Below, piece by piece: positions 46,010-56,722 of a DNA stretch of 64,000 bases. The stretch is from positions 4,148 through 68,147 of the forward strand of contig CAYOXX010000004.1 of the NCBI GenBank assembly GCA_964408025.1. The letters run 5' to 3'. Each line of letters starts with the position of its first letter. Position 1 is the first letter of the stretch. The translations under genes and the position numbers were made by a program. The notes under the pieces are model-generated. The model had not been told where the DNA came from. It did not search any database and saw only the letters and a program-made list of their open reading frames with translations. This DNA comes from an uncultured Acidobacteriota bacterium (GTDB taxonomy: Bacteria; Acidobacteriota; DATKUA01).

Positions 46010-47587
46010 CTAGTAGCCGGGCAGCTTGGAGAAGTAGAAGCTGTGGTACTGTCCACTGCTCCCCTCGAGCCTGAAGAGGTTCAGGCTGCGCAGGGCGGGA
46101 CCGAAAGCGCGCAGCAGCGGCCCGCCGCTCCATATTTTCCCCTTGTAGTTTGACCCCGCCAGGCGGTCGACCTGGCCGCTGCCGGGGTCGAAGGAGTAGC
46201 AGTCGAGCTGCAGCTCCTGCCAGGTGCGGGAGCCGTGAAGCTCTCTATAATACCCGGAACGCGAGTGGGTGATGAGGACGCGGCCGCCGTAGGTAAGCAC
46301 AACATAGTTGGAGAAAAAACTGAAGGTTTCATAGGATAACCGGTCAGGAGTGCCCCAATACGGCCTGAACCAGGGGGCTGCCTTGAACTTGGCACGCTTC
46401 CCCATCCTCCCGCCTTCGGCGGAGATCTGCTGATAGAAGTAAGTGTAACTCTTTGAGTTGCTTCCTATATATGGGCCTTCAGCGGGCGCGGCATGGGTGT
46501 AAAGCAGGTAGAGAGGCTCGCCCCCCTGCGTCGGGCTCGGGGGCACGCTAACGCGCGGCAGGAACACCGGGCTGACGAATGTTGGGTAGTGGATATTCGT
46601 CCTGTCGTTGGCGATCTTGCGCATCCTCATATCGAAGGAGTTTCCACCTTGGTCCGGTGTCACCCGCAGGACGTGGACCTGGTAGCCGATCTGGTCCACA
46701 TAGTCTCGCGGGTCGTAGGGCATCCGCTTCAGCAGCGTTACGACACCGGGAACCATCCAGCTCTCGCCGTTCCAGGCCGGCCTGTAGGGGCGGAAGAGGC
46801 GGTAATTGCCGCCCTTCGGCAGCCTCACGTCGGCAGCGCCCGGCTCCTGCAGCACGCCGGTCGAGGAGACCTCCATGAAGTAGGCCTCCCCCGCACGTCT
46901 CCCATAGAGGTCGTCGGAACTCTCATTTATGTTGGCGCCGGCGAACACGCCGACCACGTCGCCGCGCACTCCCGCGGTGAGCCAGAGCATTTGGTAGTAC
47001 ATGTCCTCCGGAGCGTTTATCTCCAGCAGTGTCTCGAAGTCGGTGGTCAGCTTGCCGGATGCGTTGAACCTTGCCGCTGCGAAGCGGCCCACGTCGCTTA
47101 CGCCCTCGGGGTAGTAGGCGATGAGCAGGAGCCCGTGATCGGGCGAGGGCGCCTGTTCGGCGAACCAGCAGGCGGCGGCCTGGCTTATCCTGCCTCCGGT
47201 CATCGTCAGCACGTCGGTCGCGGTGCCGACTTTGCCCTTGCTGTTGAGTGTGAAGGAGCGGAGCGTGTAGATGTCGAGCGACGGTGGCACATCCGTCTCC
47301 TCCATGTTCAAGGCGAAGACGACGCTGGAGTCGGCGCCCACCACTGCCCAGGCCAGCAACCGCACGTGGTGCTCGAAGCCCGTCACCTTGACCTTCTTGA
47401 GCTTATACTTCGCCGTCCCCGGCGCGGCCACGTCGTCCGCCGCCGCCGCACCCGCCAGCAGCGCCAGCGCTGCCATTACGCCCACAAAACTGCGGATAAG
47501 CTTGCTTTTCATGGCGAATTCCCCACTAGCCTGATAAAACTCGTTGAATATAGTCAGCAATGTAGCCGTTGTTAGACGCGATGGCAA
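46010..47587 (-). CDS. hypothetical secreted protein, tandem paralog A
   Basis: It has a signal peptide (LALLAGAAAADD). It is about 75% identical to the next gene along its full length, and no domain is recognised. Confidence 0.55.
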   Translation of the reverse strand: MPSRLTTATLLTIFNEFYQASGEFAMKSKLIRSFVGVMAALALLAGAAAADDVAAPGTAKYKLKKVKVTGFEHHVRLLAWAVVGADSSVVFALNMEETDVPPSLDIYTLRSFTLNSKGKVGTATDVLTMTGGRISQAAACWFAEQAPSPDHGLLLIAYYPEGVSDVGRFAAARFNASGKLTTDFETLLEINAPEDMYYQMLWLTAGVRGDVVGVFAGANINESSDDLYGRRAGEAYFMEVSSTGVLQEPGAADVRLPKGGNYRLFRPYRPAWNGESWMVPGVVTLLKRMPYDPRDYVDQIGYQVHVLRVTPDQGGNSFDMRMRKIANDRTNIHYPTFVSPVFLPRVSVPPSPTQGGEPLYLLYTHAAPAEGPYIGSNSKSYTYFYQQISAEGGRMGKRAKFKAAPWFRPYWGTPDRLSYETFSFFSNYVVLTYGGRVLITHSRSGYYRELHGSRTWQELQLDCYSFDPGSGQVDRLAGSNYKGKIWSGGPLLRAFGPALRSLNLFRLEGSSGQYHSFYFSKLPGY

Positions 47588-47896: not shown

Positions 47897-49435
47897 CTAG
47901 TAGACGGGCAACTTGGAGAAATAGAAGCTGTGGTATTGTCCATTGCTCCCCTCGAGCCTGAAGAGGCTAAGGCTGCGCAGGAGGTAAGGGTAGGGGTAGC
48001 CGAAGGGGCGGATCAGCGGCCCGCCGCTCCACACCTTTCCCTTGTAGTTTGCCCCCGCCAGGCTATTGACCTGGCCGGTGCTGAGATTGAAGGAGTAGCA
48101 GTCCAGCTGTAGCTCCTGCCAGGTGCGGGATCCGCCGCTGAGCTCGGTATAGTAAGCGGAGCGCGAGTGGGTGAGGAGGGCGCAGCCGCAGTAGGTAAGC
48201 ACAAGATAACTGGAGAAAAAACTGAAGGTTTCTCTGGATTTGCGGTTGGGAGTGCCTAAATACGGCCTGAACCAGGGGGTTGCGTTGAACTTACTACGCT
48301 CTCCGATCCTTTCGCCTTCGGCGGAGATATGCTGATAGAAGTAGGTGTATCTCTTTGAGTGGGGACCTACAAGCGGGCCGTTTGCGGGTGCGGCATGGGT
48401 ATAAAGCAGGTTGAGCGGCTCGCCTTCCTGCACCGGGCTCTCGGTCATGGGAGTGTGCGGCAGGTACGGCAGGAACACCAGGCTGACGTATGTCGGCCAG
48501 GGGACATTCGTCCTGTCGCTGGCGATCTTGTGCATCTCCATATCGAAGGAGTCCCCGGCCTGGTTCGGTGTCACCCTTAGGACGTGGATCTGGTAGCCGA
48601 TCTCGTCCACCCAGTCTGGGCGTTCCCAGGGCACCCGCTTCAGCAGCGTTACGACACCGGGAACCATCCAGCTCTCGCCGTTCCAGGCCGGTCCGTAGGG
48701 GCGGAAGAGGCGGAAATCGCCGTCCCTCGGCAGCCTCACGTCGGCAACGCCCGGCGTCCGCAGCACGCCGGTCGAGGATAACTCCATGAAGTAGGCCTCA
48801 CTTGCGCGACTGCCCCACAAGTCGTCGTAGTCCATCTCTAATATATCGGCGCCGGCGAACACGCCGACCACGTCACCGCGCACTCCCGCGCTGAGCCAGA
48901 GGTCTTGAAAGACCATGTCCTCCGGAGCGCTTATCTCCAGCAGTGTCTCGAAGTCGGTGGTCAGCTCGCCGGATGCGTCGAAGCTTGCCGCCGCGAAGCG
49001 GCCCACGCTTCTTTCATCGTCTAAGCCTTCGGGGTGGTAGGCTATGAGCAGGAGCCCGTGCGCGGTCGAGGGCGTCGACTGGTCGTCGAACCAGAAGGCG
49101 GCTGCCTGGCATACCCTGCCTCCGTCCATCATCAGCAGGTCGTTCGAGGTGCCGACCTTGCCCCTGCTGTTGAGGGTGAAGGAGCGGAACGTGACGATGT
49201 CGGGCGCCGTCGACCTCAACGGCTTCTCAGTGTCCAAGGCGAAGACAACGCTGGAGTCGCCCACACCTGCCCAGGCCAGCAATTGCACCTGGTGCTCGAA
49301 GCCCGTAACCTTGACCTTCTTGATCCTATAGTTCGCAGTCCCTGATGCGGTCACGTCGTCCGCCGCCGCCGCACCAGCCAGCAGCGTCAACGCTGTTAAT
49401 AAGCCAATAAAACTGCGGATAAATTTACTTTTCAT
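47897..49435 (-). CDS. hypothetical secreted protein, tandem paralog B
   Basis: Same family as 46010-47587. The 5' and 3' ends are about 90% identical at the nucleotide level. Confidence 0.55.
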   Translation of the reverse strand: MKSKFIRSFIGLLTALTLLAGAAAADDVTASGTANYRIKKVKVTGFEHQVQLLAWAGVGDSSVVFALDTEKPLRSTAPDIVTFRSFTLNSRGKVGTSNDLLMMDGGRVCQAAAFWFDDQSTPSTAHGLLLIAYHPEGLDDERSVGRFAAASFDASGELTTDFETLLEISAPEDMVFQDLWLSAGVRGDVVGVFAGADILEMDYDDLWGSRASEAYFMELSSTGVLRTPGVADVRLPRDGDFRLFRPYGPAWNGESWMVPGVVTLLKRVPWERPDWVDEIGYQIHVLRVTPNQAGDSFDMEMHKIASDRTNVPWPTYVSLVFLPYLPHTPMTESPVQEGEPLNLLYTHAAPANGPLVGPHSKRYTYFYQHISAEGERIGERSKFNATPWFRPYLGTPNRKSRETFSFFSSYLVLTYCGCALLTHSRSAYYTELSGGSRTWQELQLDCYSFNLSTGQVNSLAGANYKGKVWSGGPLIRPFGYPYPYLLRSLSLFRLEGSNGQYHSFYFSKLPVY

Positions 49436-49974
49436 TGCGGAATCCCTCTCTAGCCAAATAAAAAATCGTTAAACCAGCAACCTGGCGCCTGTTAGACTTG
49501 AATTCAAGCGTGAGCACGCGCCTCTACGTATTTGCAGATAAATCCATAGTCGCCCCCCCCAGAGGAAATCCAATTCATCCCCTCCAAGGAATTGGTAGAA
49601 AAGCAATTAAAAGCCTAATGATCAAGGCAAAGAGTCCGAGCCCAGGTTATTAGGCTCTATGCAACCATATTGCTTTTCAACCAGACTAAAACAGTAAGTA
49701 GCTTATTAGATATTAGGGAGGCTGGAAGTAACGGTGGTTACACCATGATTGATACTAATCTCTTGGCTATCCTGCGACACCGCATATTTATGTGGCCATG
49801 CGCGGGATTCATTTCAGGTCGTCCGCGAGGACGGCAGCCTGTAATGGGTGGGATCCTGAGGGGGGCCTTTACTTGTCCACCGTCGCTGAAGCTTTGGCGG
49901 ACTTGTCCGCCGTAGCTTTAGCGGAGGCGGATGCCCCCCTCTCTTCGCTGGCAGTCAATATCGGCAGAGGGAAG

Positions 49975-50260
49975 TAACCCACAGCTCCCGTTTTCACCAC
50001 AGAGACCTCAGAGACCACAGAGGAAGCGATTGTAGGGGAGTCCTGAATTTATCCGCCTCTGGCGGAGGGCTCCCGTGCCATTGTAGGGGAGTCCTTAAGG
50101 GCTCCCGTTTTCACCACAGAGACTCGAAGACGCGCCGTGGTGGGCACAGAGACCACAGAGGAAGCGATTGTAGGGGAGTCCTTTAGGGCTCCCGTTTGAA
50201 AATGAATCACTGTTTCGGGGGCGCTAAAGCACCCCCCTACACCAAGATTAGCGCATTATA
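49975..50260. repeat. REP-like hairpin repeat cluster (three copies of the caccacagag...tgtaggggagtcc unit)
   Basis: It is directly repeated within the cluster and shared with 45683-45735. Confidence 0.6.
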
Positions 50261-50564
50261 AAAGCTTGTGTTGGCTTCTTAATCCGCCGTCCTCACCGCA
50301 CACCTCGGCGCGCCCTGGCGGGGCGTATCGACGCTACCCCTGGTCGGCGTCCGCCGACCTCGGGTAGTCCTTCCTCGACCTGAACTCGATGATCCCCACC
50401 GGGCACACCGCCGCTCAACGCCCATCCCGCACGCACTTCTCCGTATCTACATAAAAACCAATCGCTGCTCCCTCCAGAGAAAATACAATTCAGCCCTTCC
50501 AAGGGATCGCCAGAATTGCACTCAAAAGGTGCAAATGCACGGTGGAGCGTAGACATGTAGCGGC

Positions 50565-50748
50565 AACTGTAACGACGACCTGTAGCGGCGGCTGTAGCGG
50601 CGACTTTTAAGTCGCCTACTCCCGCCGCCGGCGGGAGCAATTCATCGCGCAGTGGCGCGATTAGTCGAGCTGAAGCTCGACGCTACCTGCCGCTCCTTTC
50701 CTGTAGCGGACACCTTTAGGTGGCCTGGTCGGCCTAAAGGCCGACAAA
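50565..50748. repeat. composite REP array (ctgtagcggcggctgtagcgg / gcgattagtcgagct..agctcgacgctac / cacctttaggtg / gtcggcctaaaggccgac)
   Basis: It is an array of short perfect hairpins. The same blocks recur in a different order at 55745-55925, and the last block recurs again at 61338-61361. Confidence 0.65.
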
Positions 50749-50751
50749 TAA

Positions 50752-51042
50752 TTATGCAAACACTCCGTCCAGATTCTTAGCGGACTTCAGCCTTTCATAA
50801 GTCGTGTAGCGCAAGTTCTGCGGAGCCCTGACTTTCCCGCCTTTGATCATTTTAATCGGCTTTATCTCCTTGGCCGGCTCGGCGAAGTAGATAATCACCT
50901 TGCCCGAGTCTTTGTATGGCTCGATGCTCTTTACGGGAGCGACATGAGTGATCGCCGAAATCGGGGCTACCTGGTACGAGGCTATATACTTGATCTGTTC
51001 GATCATACTGGCGTGAATGCGTACCTTGTACCAGCAACACAA
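50752..51042 (-). CDS. hypothetical small protein encoded in AT-rich DNA
   Basis: It is AT-rich, about 85-96 aa (MIEQIKYIASYQ...YTTYERLKSAKNLDGVFA), and I recognise no motif. Confidence 0.35.
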   Translation of the reverse strand: MCCWYKVRIHASMIEQIKYIASYQVAPISAITHVAPVKSIEPYKDSGKVIIYFAEPAKEIKPIKMIKGGKVRAPQNLRYTTYERLKSAKNLDGVFA

Positions 51043-51086
51043 GTCATGGGTCTACATTGATCATTCTCTATCGACATTTTCTATAA

Positions 51087-51284
51087 TTACTTTTTGCTTT
51101 TCATTTTCTTGCACTCCTCACACAACGGTAAATTCCCCGTGCCAGTTTTTCTATATTTTCTTTCTATGTTATTTCCTTTTGTGCAGTCACCATAAATATG
51201 ATGCACAGTACCGTGTTTAGAGTAATAAGAATTTACTTTTCTTGGCATTTCACACTCCTTGATATCAATCAACAACAGATTCAA
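51087..51284 (-). CDS. hypothetical small Cys-containing (zinc-ribbon-like) protein
   Basis: It reads MPRKVNSYYSKHGTVHHIYGDCTKGNN...LPLCEECKK, with paired Cys/His. It is AT-rich. Confidence 0.3.
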   Translation of the reverse strand: MNLLLIDIKECEMPRKVNSYYSKHGTVHHIYGDCTKGNNIERKYRKTGTGNLPLCEECKKMKSKK

Positions 51285-51308
51285 CAGTTATACTACCCAC
51301 TATTTAGC

Positions 51309-51572
51309 GGTGCCCGGGGATGAGGTCCCTATTCATAGTAATACCTCATTTTGGCTTGTGCCGCCTATGCGGACGGACTCTCGTACCGTCTTGTCGAGTA
51401 TGACCTCTGACAGGTACTGTCATTGGTCCTCGACGTGGCGGCTTCTCAGAACATCTGTTCTTCGATTTTGCCATAAAATAGCACCTCCTTTCTAGGTGAT
51501 AGCTTCACCGTGCCGTTTCAGTGTTACTATCCCGAGTCAATGGAGGTTCCCCGGGCACCTAAACTCATTCTA
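51309..51572. repeat. element bounded by a perfect 12-bp inverted repeat (GGTGCCCGGGGA ... TCCCCGGGCACC), 240 bp apart
   Basis: The arms lie at 51309-51320 and 51561-51572. No ORF spans the interior, which is mixed-GC. Confidence 0.5.
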
Positions 51573-51657
51573 ATGATTTTTCTTACACTTGTCAAGCCGA
51601 AGTATTCCAAGGTGACTCTTTAATGATAGGATATTGAAAAGTTATTTTAAATCACTA

Positions 51658-51756
51658 CTATGATACGCTCTCCTCGACTATCGCTATTTCTTCATCTGTC
51701 AGACCGTAAAGCTCGTAGACGAGCTGGTCGATCTGGCGGTATCTTGTTTTTCCCAT
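51658..51756 (-). pseudogene. vestigial copy of a Type IIG RM enzyme C-terminal tail (MGKTRYRQIDQLVYELYGLTDEEIAIVEESVS*)
   Basis: It has host-like GC. It shares the 17-nt identical run ctcgtctacgagcttta and the motif LVYELYG(L/M)TDEEI with the 3' end of the RM gene at 52648. Confidence 0.55.
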
Positions 51757-51803
51757 TTAATTATATCATCTTCTTTACAAATTATCTAGCCATATAAGAT
51801 TAT

Positions 51804-52613
51804 TCATATGAGTTTTAATTCATGCAATTTTTCTGTTATTTCATCTCTATAATTTCTCGGAACTATCAAGCCATAACCAACAACCTCTCCATTCTCTCCT
51901 TTTCTAAAATTATCGAAATACTTTCGAAAATACTTATTAACATTTTCATCCCTTTCACCTGTAAAACACCACTTAAAAAACTCTCCCGTTGAGCCTACTA
52001 AACAATCGTTAATCTGAAGTGCAAAAGAAACCCTTGTAGAAGTACAAACCAAACAAGGACATGCACAAAACCTTCTAAGTGGTTTTACAATATTTTGTTC
52101 AAATCTATACCCTTCATAATATGCTTTTTGATATACATTCAAATATTCCATTATTTTAATTTTTGAATCAGGCAACCAATCAAATACAGTGTCCAGATAT
52201 GGATAATCATCTTTTTCTTTCAATAAATTATAATTCTGCTCCAAATCAAATGATAGTCTCTGCAATATATTTGTAAATGACCATTTCCAACTTTCCGCAC
52301 GATATTCTTTAGACCCTTTCCATACAAATGACATTATAAGTGTCATATTTAAATCTTTTGGCAATTTAAAGATGTCAGATCTTAACTCTGGTATTTTTTC
52401 CCTTAAATCTCTAAGTTTTTCACATTCCTTATCCATATAATTATATTTAATAACATCAGATAAGTCAAGCTGATATTTTTTCTTTATTCTTGCTACAGAT
52501 AAATCTAATTTACGTAACATTGACCTTGGTATATAATATCCCCCAACAAGCATTCCATAATCTAAGTCATATTCATCGAGAAAACAAATAATGCTCTCAG
52601 AAAGCGTACTCAT
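51804..52613 (-). CDS. hypothetical protein (269 aa) encoded in AT-rich DNA immediately downstream of the RM gene
   Basis: It has about 30% GC, no recognisable motif, and starts 35 bp after the RM stop on the same strand. Confidence 0.5.
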   Translation of the reverse strand: MSTLSESIICFLDEYDLDYGMLVGGYYIPRSMLRKLDLSVARIKKKYQLDLSDVIKYNYMDKECEKLRDLREKIPELRSDIFKLPKDLNMTLIMSFVWKGSKEYRAESWKWSFTNILQRLSFDLEQNYNLLKEKDDYPYLDTVFDWLPDSKIKIMEYLNVYQKAYYEGYRFEQNIVKPLRRFCACPCLVCTSTRVSFALQINDCLVGSTGEFFKWCFTGERDENVNKYFRKYFDNFRKGENGEVVGYGLIVPRNYRDEITEKLHELKLI

Positions 52614-52647
52614 AAATCACCTATCACATTGAATATAAAAACGTACT

Positions 52648-55638
52648 TTATTCTGTATTATTCTCAACAATTTTAATTTCCTCATCCGTCATACCATAAA
52701 GCTCGTAGACGAGTTTGTCAAGATGGCGATCAGTGGCCTCGATCTGGCGCTGGAGTCGTGTTATTTCGTTTGGATCTTTTGACATCTCAATTCTCATATT
52801 TTTGTCTATAAGAATCTCTACTAATTCAACTATTCTATCATATATTATCTTATTATCTACCTTGTCCACGGTGGGGATAGGCAGCGATTTTAATTGACTT
52901 ATTTTTATTTGTGGAAAGGCATCATGGAACTCATCATAATATGCTCGAATAAAAAAGGAAATAAGACGGCTACCGAGTATCCCAGCAATAAATTGTGCTT
53001 TGAATTTTCCATTTTTAGGAATAGTTATATAGACTTGTTGATCCGCTACTGAATTAGTTTTTTCAATAGTAACAACTAGACGATCACCAAGAATCTTGCG
53101 TGAATAAACCCTTTCCCCTTGGAAAAATTCAGGTTTTCTTGGCTCTGCAAGCCATAGACCATATCTAATATATTCAGTAGGTTTGGGAGGTGTAAATCTG
53201 CGAAGGTCACGGCCGTAAATAAATGCTCTATAACCTTCTCCTCCCAATTTGCTATGATATGGCTTTTCATCTAAGTCTCTTTTGATTTGAGGCCCTTTAC
53301 CAAACGCCGTTTGTCCATATCCTCCTAAGCGGTATGAGTGTACTCCACGAGTAACATAAGCAAATCTCTGTAATTCCGGATAACTATCCTTTAATCTTTC
53401 TACCAAAATAGCGCTAGTACTATCTAAAACTGTTGAAATTGGTCTGGAACCATCAAGATATAGTTTGACCTCATGTGTGGCAATCTCAATAATATTTCCA
53501 TTACACATATTCTTAATTGAAAATATATCCGATGGCTTAGGGCGTTTTTGTAAAGTGTAAATAATTGTATCAACCGTCAGACCTGAAAAAACATTAGCCC
53601 CTGGAGTCGTTATGCACAAATCATTACTATAACTAAGAATGAAAGATCTCGTGCTATATGAATATGTATTAGAGAGCCATACGTTAGGTACTATTAAGCC
53701 TACCCGTCCGAAATTGCGACTAAGCATGTGGGCTTTCTCCATAAATATAGAAAACATGTCAAGTTGATAAGGTGAACTCTTATAAATTCTACCAAGATAA
53801 ATCTTAGACTCTTCGGTGATATTTAGATCCTTCCAATCTCTCCCAAAAACATACGGCGGATTCCCTATAACTACGTCAAACCCTCCCTTCTTCATGATTT
53901 CGGGGAATTCTGTGTCCCAGTCAAATGGGTTGATGCGGCGGAGCTGCTCGTCGTCGAACAGGACTCCCTGGTGGTGGTCGAAGAAGTCGGTGCCGATGAG
54001 CGAGTTTCCGCACTTGATGTTGCCGCCCAGGTCGGGCAGGGCGCGCTCACGGAAGAGTTTTAGCTGCTGCTCGAGCGATTCCTTGCTCTCGCCCTCGAGG
54101 GCCTTGAGCAGCAGGTTGAGCTTGGTGACCTCGACGGCCTGGGGGTCGATGTCGACGCCGTGGATGCAGTCGAGCAGTAGTCGCTTTTTTTCGGCCGTGG
54201 AGAGGAACCACTCGCCTCCCCTGCCGCGGAAAACCTTGTTCTTGTGCTTTTCGGGATTGTTGGCGGCGTACCAGTCGCGGCAGTAGTCGAGCAGGTACTG
54301 GTAGGCGCCGATGAGGAAGGAGCCGGAACCGCATGCGGGGTCGAGTATCTTGAGCTTATGAACATGGCTCGCGGTCAGGGGTTTATTAGATTTCTTACCC
54401 TTGACGGCCGAGGTTGAACCTTCCACAAGCGGGCGGCCCGCCGCGGCGGGCTCGCCCCTACAGCCCTCGCACAGTTTGCCGACGGTGTTTTTGACGATGT
54501 AGTCGACGATGTAGGTGGGGGTGTAGTAGACGCCGCCGGCCTTGCGGACCTCCGGCTTCTCCTCGACCTTGGCGTGGTGTGCGGGCGTGAGGCGGATCAC
54601 CTTGCCGAGGAACTGCTCGTAGACGTGGCCGAGTATGTCGGCGCCGATCATCGAGAACTCGTAGGGCGACTCGGGGTAGTAGAGGCCCTTGAAGACGGTT
54701 TTGAGTGCGGCGTCGTCGATCTCGAGCTCGTGCGTTAGGCGGTCGGGCTCGGTGGCGGCGCCGCGGTCCTTCTCGAAGTGGAAGAGGCCGGAGTTGTAGC
54801 GCTCCTCGGCGCGGTCGAAGAGCTCGAGCAGGCGCCCGTAGGCGTTGGTGCCGCTGCCCAGGGCCTCGAGGCGGCCGTAGCCCTCGATGCCGCGGTCCTC
54901 GCAGATGCGCAGGAAGATGATGCGGTCGATGGTGCGCTGGACTGCGAAGTTTAGCTCGTGGACGGAGAGGCGCGGGTTGCGCAGTGCGATGTTGCGGGCC
55001 AGCAGGTCGCGCCAGCACTCGATCTCCTTGAGGAACTCCTTATCGACCGGCGCGGTGCCGCGAATGCGCTTGGATTCGGCGTAGCGGTCGAAGCTGCCCT
55101 GCAGGACCGCCTCCTTGCCGAAGAGGCCGTGGATGTCGTCGAACTGCTCGGGGTACTGCTCGAAGCCGATGTACTGGACGCGGGCTGTCGAGACCTTGTC
55201 ACTCTCGTGCGGGCGCACGCGGCAGTCGTAGACGGCGAGCTCCTCGAAGTCGGTGAGGATAGAGAGTTTCAAGTTGGCGCTCCAGCCGTAGCGGCGGAGC
55301 TGGTAGGGCAGGTGCGGGTTGTCGCGGATGTTCAGCGCCGGCTTTTTTGCCTCGACGAAGAAGATCTTTTCGGAGCCGATGCGGAAGCAGTAGTCGGGAG
55401 CCTTGGTGCCGCCGGCGACCTTGATCGAGTCCTCGTGAATGACGTCTTTGTACTGCTCCGACGTGTGCGACTTGTTGTAGATGTCCCAGCCGAGGGCCTC
55501 GAAGAAGGGGTCGATGAACTCGACGCGCAGTTGCGCCTCATTGTAGGCCGGGCTCTTAAAACCCTTCAGCCCGCGCCGGAAGGCCTCTATTAATTCCTCG
55601 GTCCGGCGCAGGCCCTCGTCTTTCGGCACTTGGAACAT
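52648..55638 (-). CDS. Type IIG restriction-modification enzyme (fused PD-ExK endonuclease plus gamma-class N6-adenine DNA methyltransferase plus C-terminal TRD)
   Basis: A PD-(D/E)xK-like motif (PDYCFRIG...IFFVEAKKP) lies at aa 81-99. SAM motif I (ILDPACGSGSFL) is at aa 431-442 and catalytic motif IV (GNPPYV) at aa 592-597. A C-terminal region of about 400 aa follows, ending with the tail LVYELYGMTDEEI. The 996-aa size fits the MmeI-like class. Confidence 0.8.
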   Translation of the reverse strand: MFQVPKDEGLRRTEELIEAFRRGLKGFKSPAYNEAQLRVEFIDPFFEALGWDIYNKSHTSEQYKDVIHEDSIKVAGGTKAPDYCFRIGSEKIFFVEAKKPALNIRDNPHLPYQLRRYGWSANLKLSILTDFEELAVYDCRVRPHESDKVSTARVQYIGFEQYPEQFDDIHGLFGKEAVLQGSFDRYAESKRIRGTAPVDKEFLKEIECWRDLLARNIALRNPRLSVHELNFAVQRTIDRIIFLRICEDRGIEGYGRLEALGSGTNAYGRLLELFDRAEERYNSGLFHFEKDRGAATEPDRLTHELEIDDAALKTVFKGLYYPESPYEFSMIGADILGHVYEQFLGKVIRLTPAHHAKVEEKPEVRKAGGVYYTPTYIVDYIVKNTVGKLCEGCRGEPAAAGRPLVEGSTSAVKGKKSNKPLTASHVHKLKILDPACGSGSFLIGAYQYLLDYCRDWYAANNPEKHKNKVFRGRGGEWFLSTAEKKRLLLDCIHGVDIDPQAVEVTKLNLLLKALEGESKESLEQQLKLFRERALPDLGGNIKCGNSLIGTDFFDHHQGVLFDDEQLRRINPFDWDTEFPEIMKKGGFDVVIGNPPYVFGRDWKDLNITEESKIYLGRIYKSSPYQLDMFSIFMEKAHMLSRNFGRVGLIVPNVWLSNTYSYSTRSFILSYSNDLCITTPGANVFSGLTVDTIIYTLQKRPKPSDIFSIKNMCNGNIIEIATHEVKLYLDGSRPISTVLDSTSAILVERLKDSYPELQRFAYVTRGVHSYRLGGYGQTAFGKGPQIKRDLDEKPYHSKLGGEGYRAFIYGRDLRRFTPPKPTEYIRYGLWLAEPRKPEFFQGERVYSRKILGDRLVVTIEKTNSVADQQVYITIPKNGKFKAQFIAGILGSRLISFFIRAYYDEFHDAFPQIKISQLKSLPIPTVDKVDNKIIYDRIVELVEILIDKNMRIEMSKDPNEITRLQRQIEATDRHLDKLVYELYGMTDEEIKIVENNTE

Positions 55639-55744
55639 GCTAACTCGCCGCCCGCGATGCGTTGTCTGACCTAAGAATAGCGTATTAAGTTATTTATGTG
55701 AAGAGAGCGGTTCTACCGTTTATTTCGACAGTGAACTGTTTCTG

Positions 55745-55925
55745 CGGCATGTAGAGGCCGTAGCGGCGGCTGTAGCGGAGATTGTAGCGGCCACCTTTAG
55801 GTGGCCTAGTCGGCCTAAAGGCCGACGCTACCGGCTGCATATTCCCGCCTGCGGCGGTAGCAACTCATCGAGCAGTTGCGCGATTAGTCGAGCTCCGCCT
55901 GAGGCGGATAAATTCAGCTCGACGC
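55745..55925. repeat. composite REP array homologous to 50565-50748
   Basis: It contains gtagcggcggctgtagcgg, cacctttaggtggcctagtcggcctaaaggccgacgctacc and gcgattagtcgagct...agctcgacgctac. Confidence 0.65.
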
Positions 55926-55932
55926 TACATTT

Positions 55933-56640
55933 TTAAATAACGTATCTCATGATCGGGCGTGTTGGGGAGCGGCGTGCGACCTCTTTGAAGCCGGCCTGCC
56001 TGTAGGCCGAGACGTGGCCGTGGAAGACGTAGAGGTCCGGGACCTTCGCCTTCTTCGGCTCGGCGGCGTAGCCCTCGACTATCTTCGCGCCTTTGAGGGC
56101 CGCGTACTCGACCGCCGCTTTCATCAGCTCCACGCTGACGCCGCGCAGCCTGTATTCCTTATCGATGAAGAAGCAGACGATCGACCAGACCGGCTGGTCA
56201 TCGACCGGGCTGAGGACGCGCGATGTCTCCAGCCTCGGGAAGCGCTCGCGCGGCTCCACCGAGCACCAGCCAATAGCCCGGGTCAGGGACCCGAACCGTT
56301 CATCGCGTTCAGGTGCCGTGCCGGCCGAAGAATTGCCGGGACTTATCGCCTCCGGCTCAGCGTCCCGGCCCTCGCGTGCCGATCCCTGAGGGATCCGACC
56401 GGTTTCTTTAATATACGCAAGAATACCCGGGACGCGTCCGGACTCGACGATGGCCTTCATGGCGCGCCTGTTCCCCTCGCCCTTGTTCTTCTCGAACTCG
56501 GAGCGGGTCTGGCGGAACCACATGCACCAGCAGCCGCCGCAGGCGCCATTCTCGCCGAACAGCTCCTCGAAGTCGTCCCAGCGCTCGGTGGTGAGCGGAT
56601 GGAACTCCAATTCCAGCGAGGAATCCGATAAAGGTGTCAT
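55933..56640 (-). CDS. GNAT-family N-acetyltransferase (CWCMW-motif subgroup)
   Basis: It has the GGCWCMWFR motif and a C-terminal acetyl-CoA-binding-like region (KEYRLRGVSVELMKAAVEYAALKGAKIVEGY). Confidence 0.55.
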   Translation of the reverse strand: MTPLSDSSLELEFHPLTTERWDDFEELFGENGACGGCWCMWFRQTRSEFEKNKGEGNRRAMKAIVESGRVPGILAYIKETGRIPQGSAREGRDAEPEAISPGNSSAGTAPERDERFGSLTRAIGWCSVEPRERFPRLETSRVLSPVDDQPVWSIVCFFIDKEYRLRGVSVELMKAAVEYAALKGAKIVEGYAAEPKKAKVPDLYVFHGHVSAYRQAGFKEVARRSPTRPIMRYVI

Positions 56641-56722
56641 CAGTGACCCCCCCGACGGGATTAACAGGATCATACACCACAGTAGAGGTCCGGAGCCTAA
56701 TCCTTCTTAGGCTCGACGGCAA

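What the first reader, a model, noticed from the sequence alone, without database searches (positions are those of the whole stretch)
52648..55638. Type IIG RM enzyme with a compositionally foreign target-recognition half
The gene splits into two composition domains. The 5' part encoding aa 1 to about 575 is host-like GC (about 62%) and covers the PD-ExK nuclease, the helical region, SAM motif I and the run up to NPPY. The 3' part encoding aa about 597-996, the remainder of the MTase fold plus the TRD, is about 33% GC. The composition break sits within about 70 nt of the NPPY codons (about 53870-53930). This is the pattern expected if the specificity (TRD) module was replaced by a horizontally acquired cassette while the catalytic module stayed native. 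In a single-chain nuclease/methylase that would imply a recent change of DNA specificity.
Basis: partly seen in the sequence, partly recalled or inferred. Interest (0 to 1): 0.75.

Follow-up and report, generated by a model that had tools for sequence, protein, structure and literature searches.

The report
Restriction enzyme with swapped recognition half
One gene for a combined DNA-cutting and DNA-marking defence enzyme is a splice of a native, GC-rich front half and a foreign, AT-rich back half that chooses the DNA target; this is a very clean example of a known way bacteria change what their defence enzymes recognise.

Summary
The gene at 52648..55638 (- strand, 996 aa) is an intact Type IIG restriction-modification enzyme. 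Its third-codon-position GC falls from 0.88 to 0.28 at codons 569-588, just before NPPY (aa 593-596, window 53862..53851).

- **Native front half.** It is 94-99% nt identical to a sister genome and sits beside the same GNAT gene in a more distant relative.
- **Replaced back half.** Similarity to the sister stops one base after the NPPY codons. The two back halves share 32% aa identity.
- **Longer foreign block.** The low-GC block runs on to about 51040. It carries an unrelated 269-aa gene (RNase H-like fold in a predicted model) and a 66-nt leftover of the ancestral 3' end (51673..51740).
- **Recurrent, not a one-off.** All four syntenic relatives carry different low-GC back halves. Across 81 family members the front half tracks host GC and the back half is lower in 80. 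Identities of the two halves are uncorrelated.
- **Not an artefact.** Three metagenome assemblies are identical here.

Recognition-domain replacement between Type IIG alleles is already published (Furuta 2010). This is an unusually sharp new member of a known kind. Modest extras are synonymous-site conservation of AATCCGCCGTAT and stacked 3'-end remnants with effector-like genes.

The parts
52648..55638 (-). Intact Type IIG restriction-modification gene, 996 aa
   Evidence: ORF. Pfam HSDR_N, N6_Mtase, Eco57I, MmeI_Mtase and TaqI_C. PADLOC REase_MTase_IIG, E 5e-191.
53851..55638 (-). Native front half (aa 1-596). It holds the PD-(D/E)xK nuclease (D82, E96, K98), a helical region, and methylase motifs up to NPPY.
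   Evidence: GC 0.62 and GC3 0.88. It is 94-99% nt identical to L096/L001 outside two variable patches. It is syntenic with the GNAT gene in L007/L008. The catalytic residues are invariant in alignment A1.
53851..53862 (-). NPPY codons AAT CCG CCG TAT, which mark the left junction of the exchanged block
   Evidence: Similarity to L001 ends at 53850. The L007/L008 pair breaks at the same codon. These synonymous codon choices are conserved across the family beyond host codon bias.
52648..53850 (-). Foreign back half (aa 597-996). It holds the rest of the methylase fold, the TaqI_C recognition domain (aa 806-921), and a C-terminal helix.
   Evidence: GC 0.365 and GC3 0.28. It is 32% aa identical to the sister allele. 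It is 53-65% identical to back halves in unrelated hosts: L030, L006, L005, L010, L009.
52663..52728 (-). The gene's own conserved 3' segment (..LDKLVYELYGMTDEEIKIVE..). This is copy 1 of a 66-nt direct repeat.
   Evidence: Repeat family D4, 77% identical to 51673..51738. Sequence read.
51804..52613 (-). Passenger gene, 269 aa. A rare family whose predicted model has an RNase H-like fold.
51673..51740 (-). Remnant of the ancestral 3' end of the restriction gene (copy 2 of the direct repeat). It has a GC-richer, host-like codon style.
   Evidence: It encodes QIDQLVYELYGLTDEEIAIVE, 21 of 21 aa identical to the C-terminus of sister allele P0002. It is 91% nt identical to L001 3447-3513 and 87% to L001 4700-4762.
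51043..51672 (.). AT-rich filler with no long ORF. It replaces the 5' 717 nt of a 333-aa gene that is present in the sister locus.
   Evidence: GC 0.35-0.50. Three-frame translation shows no long open frame. No similarity to L001.
50752..51042 (-). Truncated 3' remnant of the 333-aa gene. It marks the right edge of the variable block.
   Evidence: 92.6% aa identical to aa 240-333 of the L001 333-aa gene. 87% nt identical.
55760..55894 (.). Cluster of REP-like hairpin repeats upstream of the gene. It is the direct-repeat partner of 50557..50745.
   Evidence: Repeat families D1, D3, D5 and D10, 78-95% identical. The motif is enriched in the window: 6 matches against 0.56 expected.
50557..50745 (.). 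Cluster of REP-like hairpin repeats downstream of the island
   Evidence: The same repeats flank the island in L001.

Best explanation
This is an intact single-chain Type IIG restriction-modification enzyme. It has an N-terminal PD-(D/E)xK nuclease, a gamma-class N6-adenine methylase, and a TaqI_C-type recognition domain.

**What happened.** Its back half was replaced by recombination with a homologous gene of low-GC origin. The replaced part runs from the residue after NPPY to the stop codon.
- The left crossover lay in the nucleotide-conserved stretch that encodes GGFD(A/V)VIGNPPY.
- The incoming block carried its own recognition domain, its own C-terminal helix and stop codon, and a downstream passenger gene with a predicted RNase H-like fold.
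- It was joined just upstream of the resident gene's last 22 or so codons. Those codons survive as a non-functional remnant.

**Consequence.** The front half stayed native. The enzyme therefore keeps its catalytic machinery but should now methylate and cut at a different DNA sequence.

**Context.** The same kind of exchange has happened repeatedly in this clade and throughout the family.

**Shown.** The composition break, the exact end of homology, different back halves on near-identical front halves, the remnant, and the family-wide pattern.

**Inferred.** The recombination mechanism, the enzyme's activity, and the change of specificity.
For: **The break and the domains**
- The break is abrupt: GC3 0.88 to 0.28, log-likelihood ratio 199.5.
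- The domain set is complete and the catalytic residues are invariant.

**Sister locus L001/L096**
- Flanks are 97-100% nt identical and the front half 94-99%.
- Similarity stops at 53850, and the back half is 32% aa identical.

**Second independent pair, L007/L008**
- These are syntenic loci with GNAT upstream, from one sample.
- They are 96.7% identical up to the NPPY codon and 97.5% again from 55 nt before the stop, with unrelated low-GC sequence between.

**Remnant of the ancestral 3' end**
- 21 of 21 aa match the sister's C-terminus.

**At least two nested events**
- The window and L001 share AT-rich codons for the last 11 or so residues before the end of NPPY. L007/L008 keep GC-rich codons there.

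**Family survey, 81 loci**
- Front-half GC tracks the upstream flank: mean difference -0.005, r 0.86 (61 loci with an upstream flank).
- The back half is lower than the front half in 80 of 81, on average 0.09 below the flank.
- Wilcoxon p = 1.7e-11 (61 loci with an upstream flank).
- Front-half and back-half identities are uncorrelated: Spearman 0.03 over 3157 pairs.

**The same recognition-domain type in unrelated hosts**
- It occurs at 53-65% aa identity with GC from 0.35 (Bacteroidales) to 0.51 (Planctomycetota).
- That range fits transfer followed by gradual adjustment to host composition.

**Not an assembly artefact**
- Three JGI assemblies are 100% identical over 10-21 kb.
- The sister allele appears in two assemblies.

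**Precedent**
- Allelic replacement of the recognition domain in Type IIG genes of closely related genomes is published (PMC2853133).
Against: - No close donor was found. The best back-half relative is 65% aa identical, so direction and source are inferred from composition alone.
- No enzymatic or methylome data exist, so activity and the change of specificity are untested.
- The mechanism at the right junction is unclear. The two copies of the 3' segment are only 77% identical.
- The AT-rich block continues about 630 nt past the remnant, so more than one event is needed.
- All four syntenic alleles have similarly low GC (0.36-0.39). That could mean long-lived alleles exchanged within the clade rather than fresh imports from low-GC organisms.
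Confidence: 0.8

Rival explanations
1. The whole chimeric allele was imported from a related high-GC strain. That strain already carried the GC-rich front half joined to the AT-rich back half and the passenger gene. Homologous recombination used the flanks or the front half on the left and the 3'-end remnant on the right. On this reading the splice of native and foreign DNA is older and did not happen in this lineage.
For: - All four syntenic alleles have the same two-part composition.
- The window and L001 share the AT-rich 11 codons before the end of NPPY, so an earlier junction predates their split.
- Both also share the architecture of gene, passenger ORF, then 3' remnant. That gives a right-hand homology arm.
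- The front half has patches of lower identity to L096: 86% at 55650-55551 and 81-84% around 54550-54335.
Against: - Most of the front half is as similar to the sister as the flanks are. No imported tract is visible in it.
- Similarity ends exactly at NPPY.
- Only two alleles of this species-level group are available.
- This rival changes the timing and the donor. It does not change the fact of a back-half replacement.
Confidence: 0.35
2. The low GC of the back half is an intrinsic property of the family with no recent transfer. It would be kept by amino-acid composition, by selection for AT-rich DNA, or by relaxed codon selection in the fast-evolving recognition half.
For: - The back half is lower in GC than the front half in 80 of 81 family members, including hosts of moderate GC.
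- In one locus (L005) the front half at 0.59 is above its flanks at 0.46-0.49.
Against: - GC3 of 0.28 in a host with GC3 0.88 cannot come from amino-acid composition.
- Sister genomes with 94-99% identical front halves have back halves at 32% aa identity. In-place divergence cannot produce that.
- The size of the deficit ranges from 0 to 0.26, as expected for cassettes of different ages rather than a fixed property.
- The passenger gene and the filler are equally AT-rich.
Confidence: 0.05
3. Metagenome assembly chimera. Two organisms' homologous genes were joined at the conserved NPPY region.
For: - The sequence comes from metagenome assemblies.
- The junction sits on a nucleotide stretch conserved across the family.
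Against: - Three separate JGI assemblies (3300028837, 3300008517, 3300008516) are 100% identical across the junction and 10-21 kb around it.
- The low-GC block is embedded in high-GC sequence on both sides. An artefact would need two chimeric joins, and it still yields an in-frame intact ORF.
- The sister allele has the same architecture in two further assemblies.
- The shared exact stretch is only about 15 nt, shorter than assembler k-mers.
Confidence: 0.02
4. A programmed switching system. Silent recognition-domain cassettes stored downstream would be shuffled into the expressed gene by a site-specific recombinase, as in phase-variable Type I hsdS loci.
For: - A second copy of the gene's 3' segment lies 990 nt downstream.
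- Several family loci carry one to three extra 3'-end copies.
Against: - The downstream copy is only about 22 codons long and has no recognition domain attached.
- The sequence between the copies is an unrelated gene with a predicted RNase H-like fold.
- The repeats are direct, not inverted. The only inverted repeats in 49400..56700 are two weak pairs.
- No recombinase, integrase or reverse transcriptase gene is called within 10 kb.
Confidence: 0.03

Closest known systems
[quoted passage not shown]
   Same: Closely related genomes share the flanks and the N-terminal part of a Type IIG gene. They carry unrelated sequence in the C-terminal recognition part.
   Different: - Here the swapped part begins exactly at motif IV (NPPY), so it includes part of the methylase fold.
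- The two halves differ by 26 points of GC, and by 60 points at third codon positions.
- The block drags a passenger gene along and leaves a remnant of the old 3' end.
- The published passages I read do not describe a composition contrast.
Domain movement of recognition domains in Type I hsdS, Type III mod and Type IIG genes of Helicobacter pylori (Furuta et al. 2011 PMC3077401; 2014 PMC3983042), and allelic variation in Haemophilus Type III mod (PMC1557822)
   Same: Variable recognition modules are bounded by conserved segments that act as recombination arms. Exchange creates new specificities on a constant catalytic scaffold. For these three papers I saw only abstracts and search passages.
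   Different: - Those cases are exchanges within a species, among genes of similar composition.
- Here the cassettes appear to circulate across phyla and keep a foreign composition.
Insertion with long target duplication (Kobayashi group; described in PMC2853133)
   Same: A gene (the 269-aa ORF) is bracketed by direct repeats of tens of bases: 66 nt, 990 nt apart. Relatives without the insert have a single copy (L007/L008).
   Different: - The two copies are only 77% identical and differ in composition. One matches the incoming cassette and the other matches the sister's resident gene.
- They therefore look like two stacked allelic 3' ends rather than a duplication made at insertion.
Displaced C-terminal modules of polymorphic toxin loci (CdiA-CT/CdiI and Rhs orphan arrays). 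This comparison is from my own knowledge and was not tested here.
   Same: The variable C-terminal part of a large conserved protein is replaced together with a downstream gene. Fragments of earlier alleles pile up downstream, as in L025 with three extra 3' ends.
   Different: - The protein class and function are different.
- The leftover here is the conserved tail of the old gene, not an orphan module that begins with the conserved pre-toxin motif.
- The downstream genes are not immunity genes.
Solved relatives by sequence: CamA adenine methyltransferase (7LNI, 8CXZ) and BREX PglX/BrxX (8C45, 9EWZ)
   Same: They share the gamma-class N6-adenine methylase core (E 9e-11 to 9e-7 over 120-160 residues).
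   Different: - They are only distant, partial matches.
- None has this nuclease-methylase-TaqI_C architecture.
- No solved structure of a close relative was found by sequence.

Membership tests
Type IIG restriction-modification enzyme (single-chain nuclease plus methylase plus recognition domain) | Nuclease, methylase and recognition domains in one polypeptide | tested here: met
   There is one intact 996-aa ORF. Pfam finds an HSDR_N-type N-terminus, N6_Mtase/Eco57I/MmeI_Mtase and TaqI_C in that order. The best PADLOC model is REase_MTase_IIG, E 5e-191.
Type IIG restriction-modification enzyme (single-chain nuclease plus methylase plus recognition domain) | PD-(D/E)xK nuclease catalytic residues present | tested here: met
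   D82, E96 and K98 (PDYCF...FVEAKKP) are invariant in a 16-sequence family alignment.
Type IIG restriction-modification enzyme (single-chain nuclease plus methylase plus recognition domain) | Gamma-class N6-adenine methylase motifs: motif I (DPACGSG) upstream of motif IV (NPPY) | tested here: met
   Motif I starts at aa 433 and NPPY is aa 593-596. Both are invariant in the family.
Type IIG restriction-modification enzyme (single-chain nuclease plus methylase plus recognition domain) | Sequence-specific methylation, and cleavage at a fixed distance from the site | not testable with these tools
   This needs methylome sequencing or a purified enzyme.
Allelic recognition-domain replacement (as in PMC2853133) | Closely related genomes share the flanks and the N-terminal part but have unalignable C-terminal parts | tested here: met
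   Window against L001/L096. L007 against L008.
Allelic recognition-domain replacement (as in PMC2853133) | The alleles recognise different DNA sequences | not testable with these tools
   This is inferred only, from 32% aa identity of the back halves.
Horizontally acquired segment | Composition deviates from the host, and the closest relatives differ from those of neighbouring native sequence | tested here: met
   GC3 is 0.28 against 0.88. Relatives of the back half are in unrelated hosts.
Horizontally acquired segment | An identifiable donor lineage | tested here: not met
   The best back-half relative is 65% aa identical. The exact-junction scan of metagenome contigs found only the sister allele and one unrelated member.
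Phase-variable shufflon of recognition domains | Silent recognition-domain copies, inverted repeats, and a nearby site-specific recombinase | tested here: not met
   The downstream copy is a 22-codon tail with no recognition domain. There are no meaningful inverted repeats. No recombinase is called in the neighbourhood.
Insertion with long target duplication | Near-identical direct repeats bracket the insert, and the repeat is single at the empty site | tested here: inconclusive
   Direct repeats bracket the 269-aa ORF, and relatives have a single copy. However, the copies are only 77% identical and differ in composition.

The most novel reading that the evidence does not exclude
The 3' part of this very widespread Type IIG family may act as a cassette-exchange site.

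**The proposed unit.** A unit made of a recognition half plus a downstream effector-like gene would move between genomes of different phyla. The downstream genes seen here are a protein with a predicted RNase H-like fold, TIR proteins, Fic domains and a membrane protein.

**The anchors.** The left anchor would be a nucleotide stretch (AATCCGCCGTAT) kept constant even at synonymous sites. The right anchor would be the conserved last 20 or so codons.

**The footprint.** Stacked 3'-end remnants would be left behind, much as polymorphic-toxin loci leave orphan modules. On this reading, specificity and an accessory effector are swapped together.
Probability: 0.2. Interest if true: 0.6.

Novelty: new member of a known kind. 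Interest (0 to 1): 0.38.

Why it matters
**For this organism.** Two otherwise near-identical populations should carry different methylation marks and restriction barriers. That affects which phages and which foreign DNA each can accept.

**More generally.** The locus is a textbook-clean natural experiment.
- The exact splice point (after NPPY) shows where a working nuclease-methylase scaffold tolerates replacement. The extent of the swap (methylase motifs after NPPY, plus the recognition domain, plus the tail) shows how much can be replaced. Both are useful for engineering Type IIG enzymes with new specificities.
- The survey suggests the rule holds across phyla in a family with thousands of members. 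The catalytic half has host-like composition, while the recognition half is lower in GC and unrelated to it in ancestry.

None of this overturns current understanding.

Tried and rejected
**Explanations rejected**
- *Assembly chimera.* Rejected because three assemblies are identical here.
- *Passenger gene linked to the recognition domain.* I tested whether the 269-aa downstream gene travels with this recognition domain. Its seven known relatives are solitary genes in unrelated contexts. It is a passenger, not a specificity partner.
- *Silent cassettes or a shufflon.* No recognition domain follows the gene, there are no real inverted repeats, and no recombinase is nearby.

**Searches that found little**
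- *A close donor.* The protein search of the back half peaks at 65% identity. That search also did not list the query's own protein P0001, for reasons I cannot explain.
- *More alleles at this junction.* A scan of metagenome contigs with the exact 37-nt junction returned only the sister allele again (L096) and one unrelated member (L095).
- *Nucleotide-level conservation of the 3' segment.* Codon choices there vary, unlike at NPPY.
- *Host identity.* The window holds no rRNA gene, and the sources give no names for P0001 and P0002. The host stays unidentified.

- In alignment A2 the L005 and L006 rows were taken at wrong coordinates and should be ignored.
Full report
**1. The observation**

The region holds one intact ORF on the minus strand, 52648..55638, 996 aa.
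- Sliding-window GC is 0.57-0.70 from 55638 down to about 53900, and 0.33-0.41 from about 53870 to the stop codon.
- By codon position, GC3 is 0.876 for codons 1-596 and 0.280 for codons 597-996.
- A likelihood change-point on GC3 falls after codon 584, with 2-lnL support at codons 569-588. On all positions it falls at window 53901, with support 53938..53853.
- The log-likelihood ratio is 199.5. The next largest among the window's 49 open frames of at least 300 aa is 58.
- NPPY is aa 593-596, window 53862..53851. Motif I DPACGSG starts at aa 433.
The rest of the 64-kb window is 0.54-0.70 GC.

**2. What the gene is**

- Pfam finds, in order, an HSDR_N-type N-terminus, N6_Mtase/Eco57I/MmeI_Mtase, and a TaqI_C specificity domain at aa 806-921.
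- The best defence-system model is REase_MTase_IIG, E 5e-191.
- In a 16-member alignment, D82, E96 and K98 of the PD-(D/E)xK motif, motif I and NPPY are invariant. Invariant columns are dense up to P595 and sparse afterwards.
- By sequence, the nearest solved structures are only distant methylase cores: CamA and BREX PglX.
- The Eco57I Pfam match runs to aa 671.

**3. It is not an assembly artefact**

- The exact protein is encoded on contigs from three JGI metagenomes. Those contigs are 100% identical to the window over 10-21 kb.
- The low-GC block has high-GC sequence on both sides, and the ORF is in frame.

**4. Comparison with relatives**

*Separate searches with the two halves.*
- The front half has thousands of relatives at about 62-65% aa identity across many phyla. 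It also has three closer ones: P0002 at 89% and P0003/P0004 at 72%.
- The back half has a different set of best hits, at most 65% identical.

*The sister locus.*
- The locus of P0002 (L001, and again L096 from another assembly at 99.9%) is 97-100% nt identical to the window in the flanks. It is 94-99% identical per 100 nt through most of the front half.
- Similarity stops at window 53850, one base after the NPPY codons.
- The two back halves are 32% aa identical.
- The sister's back half is also low in GC, at 0.30-0.44.

*The more distant relatives.*
- P0003 and P0004 (L007, L008) come from one sample and have the same GNAT gene upstream. L007 shares further upstream gene families with the window's contig.
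- They are 96.7% identical to each other up to the NPPY codon, and 97.5% identical again from 55 nt before the stop. Between those points lies unrelated sequence of 0.33-0.43 GC.

*What this shows.*
- The front half is inherited vertically at this chromosomal site.
- The back half has been replaced independently several times.
- The exchanged unit is bounded by NPPY and by the conserved last 18-22 or so codons.

**5. Anatomy of the block in the window**

Reading in gene orientation:
- The new back half, 53850..52648, with its own conserved tail at 52728..52663.
- A 34-nt spacer.
- A 269-aa ORF, 52613..51804, at GC about 0.29.
- A 66-nt GC-richer segment, 51740..51673, which is a 77% direct repeat of the gene's own tail. 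It encodes 21 residues identical to the sister allele's C-terminus (sequence).
- About 630 nt of AT-rich sequence with no long ORF.
- The last 94 codons of a 333-aa gene that is complete in the sister locus.

The 66-nt segment is thus the leftover of the gene's previous 3' end. The sister locus has the same layout with a different passenger, a 324-aa gene with a TIR-like match, followed by its own remnant at L001 4700-4762.

The window and the sister also share AT-rich codons for the last 11 or so residues up to NPPY, where L007/L008 keep GC-rich codons. This explains why the GC3 change point lies a few codons before the point where homology ends. It also implies at least two nested replacement events in this lineage.

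**6. The passenger gene**

- The 269-aa protein has no Pfam or PADLOC match.
- It has only seven relatives in 5.8 billion proteins.
- Those relatives are solitary genes in unrelated neighbourhoods, never beside a Type IIG gene.
- It is therefore a hitch-hiker. It is plausibly a nuclease-type accessory, not a specificity partner.

**7. Family-wide survey**

I fetched 80 loci from species-representative genomes of many phyla.
- For 81 usable genes, front-half GC tracks the upstream flank: mean difference -0.005, r 0.86 (61 loci with an upstream flank).
- The back half is lower than the front half in 80 of 81. The median gap is 0.07, the maximum is 0.26 (the window), and it averages 0.09 below the flank. 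Wilcoxon p = 1.7e-11 (61 loci with an upstream flank).
- Pairwise identity of front halves (median 64%) is uncorrelated with that of back halves (median 26%): Spearman 0.03 over 3157 pairs.
- The window's recognition-domain type recurs at 53-65% aa identity in a deltaproteobacterium, a Bacteroidales genome (gene GC 0.35-0.37), a Planctomycetota genome (back half 0.51 in a 0.62 host) and two metagenome contigs.

This pattern fits recognition halves that circulate horizontally, come on average from AT-richer pools, and drift towards host composition with time. On that reading the window's copy is among the least adjusted and therefore among the most recent. I cannot put a date on it.

**8. Two smaller observations**

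*Synonymous conservation at NPPY.*
- The NPPY codons are AAT CCG CCG TAT far more often than host codon bias predicts.
- In hosts with front-half GC3 of at least 0.72, AAT is used in 68% of loci against 17% at other Asn codons. TAT is used in 74% against 21%.
- In hosts with GC3 of 0.55 or less, CCG is used in 48-57% against 27%.
- Motif I shows no comparable pattern by eye in the same call.
- The peptide patterns used to fetch the loci lie elsewhere in the protein, so this is not a sampling artefact. The loci are not phylogenetically independent, however, so the p-values are only indicative.
- The pattern would fit a short nucleotide anchor at the crossover point.
- The 3' segment shows no such nucleotide conservation.

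*Extra 3'-end copies.*
- Extra copies of the 3' tail occur downstream of the gene in 7 of 86 loci examined. In two more loci the tail motif lies inside a longer reading frame.
- Where an ORF lies between the stop codon and the remnant, or is fused after the tail motif, it is effector-like and different each time:
  - a TIR protein in L025, which also has three extra tails;
  - a small membrane protein in L041;
  - Fic domains fused in frame in L014 and L082.

**9. How it most likely works**

*Shown.*
- A native nuclease-methylase scaffold joined in frame, right after NPPY, to a foreign recognition half.
- An old 3' end left behind.
- The same process repeated in relatives.

*Inferred.*
- Exchange is by homologous recombination. 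One crossover lies in the conserved GGFD(A/V)VIGNPPY-coding stretch. The other lies at or near the conserved tail.
- When the incoming DNA carries its own tail plus a downstream gene, the resident tail is retained as a remnant and can serve as the right-hand arm for later exchanges.
- The enzyme is active and now has a different specificity.

*Open.*
- The immediate donor may have been a low-GC organism, or a related strain that already carried the chimera. I give the latter about one chance in three.

**10. Comparison with what is known, and verdict**

- Allelic replacement of the recognition domain in Type IIG genes of closely related genomes was described in 2010. So was the insertion of genes bracketed by long direct repeats (PMC2853133).
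- Recognition-domain movement is documented for Type I, III and IIG systems. For those papers I saw only abstracts and search passages (PMC3077401, PMC3983042, PMC1557822).
- The finding is therefore a new member of a known kind.
- It is notable for the sharpness of the composition contrast (60 points of GC3 inside one ORF), the exact boundary at motif IV, and the retained remnant.
- I rate interest as moderate-low (0.38).
- The cassette-plus-effector docking idea and the synonymous anchor at NPPY are the parts that could be new if a family-wide analysis confirms them.

Noticed in passing
window 49791..49875 (+): There is an Rfam match to the DUF3800-VII RNA motif (48.1 bits, gathering score 36.2). 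It lies in the intergenic space between the 512-aa gene and the repeat cluster. It was not found in the sister or syntenic loci, nor in loci of the 269-aa gene's relatives. From memory, the 269-aa protein's motifs (F.DE.D near the N-terminus, ALQ..D..VG near the C-terminus) resemble DUF3800. Pfam gave no such hit.
   Followed up: partly
window 50000..50750 and 55760..55930: Clusters of short hairpin repeats (TGTAGCGGCCACCTTTAGGTGGCC, TAGTCGGCCTAAAGGCCGAC, ATTGTAGGGGAGTCC...) lie on both sides of the restriction island. They form direct repeats 78-95% identical about 5.1-5.2 kb apart. The same repeats flank the island in L001. The TGTAGCGG motif occurs 6 times in the window against 0.56 expected, and 5 of the 6 are here. 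They could mark the borders of an older insertion of the whole island.
   Followed up: partly
window 47897..49435 (-) and 46010..47587 (-): Two tandem paralogous genes of 512 and 525 aa are 72% aa identical. They have no Pfam or PADLOC match. The 512-aa copy begins with a hydrophobic, signal-peptide-like stretch. It is 98% identical in the sister locus.
   Followed up: no
L001 3633..6853: Downstream of its restriction gene, the sister locus carries three further low-GC genes that the window lacks or has lost. The first is a 324-aa protein with a TIR-like or nucleoside-deoxyribosyltransferase-like match. The second is a 333-aa protein of unknown family, of which the window keeps only the last 94 codons. 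The third is an EVE-domain plus PD-(D/E)xK-like protein that matches candidate defence families PDC-S02 and PDC-S11. The site behaves as a small variable defence island.
   Followed up: partly
L014 12872..13705 and L082 12995..13831: In two Nitrospirota genomes the Type IIG reading frame continues past the usual C-terminal tail motif into a 277-278-aa extension that carries a Fic domain. This would be a restriction-modification-Fic fusion protein.
   Followed up: partly
window 54335..54550 (aa about 390-425): The loop just before methylase motif I is the one part of the front half that differs between sister alleles. The sister has about 27 extra residues there, and local GC3 dips to 0.57-0.67.
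   Followed up: no
L095 958..994: An unrelated family member from a metagenome shares the exact 37-nt junction sequence (allowing for the degenerate positions of the search pattern). Over the surrounding 79 nt it is only 78% identical. This fits a nucleotide-conserved anchor at NPPY.
   Followed up: partly
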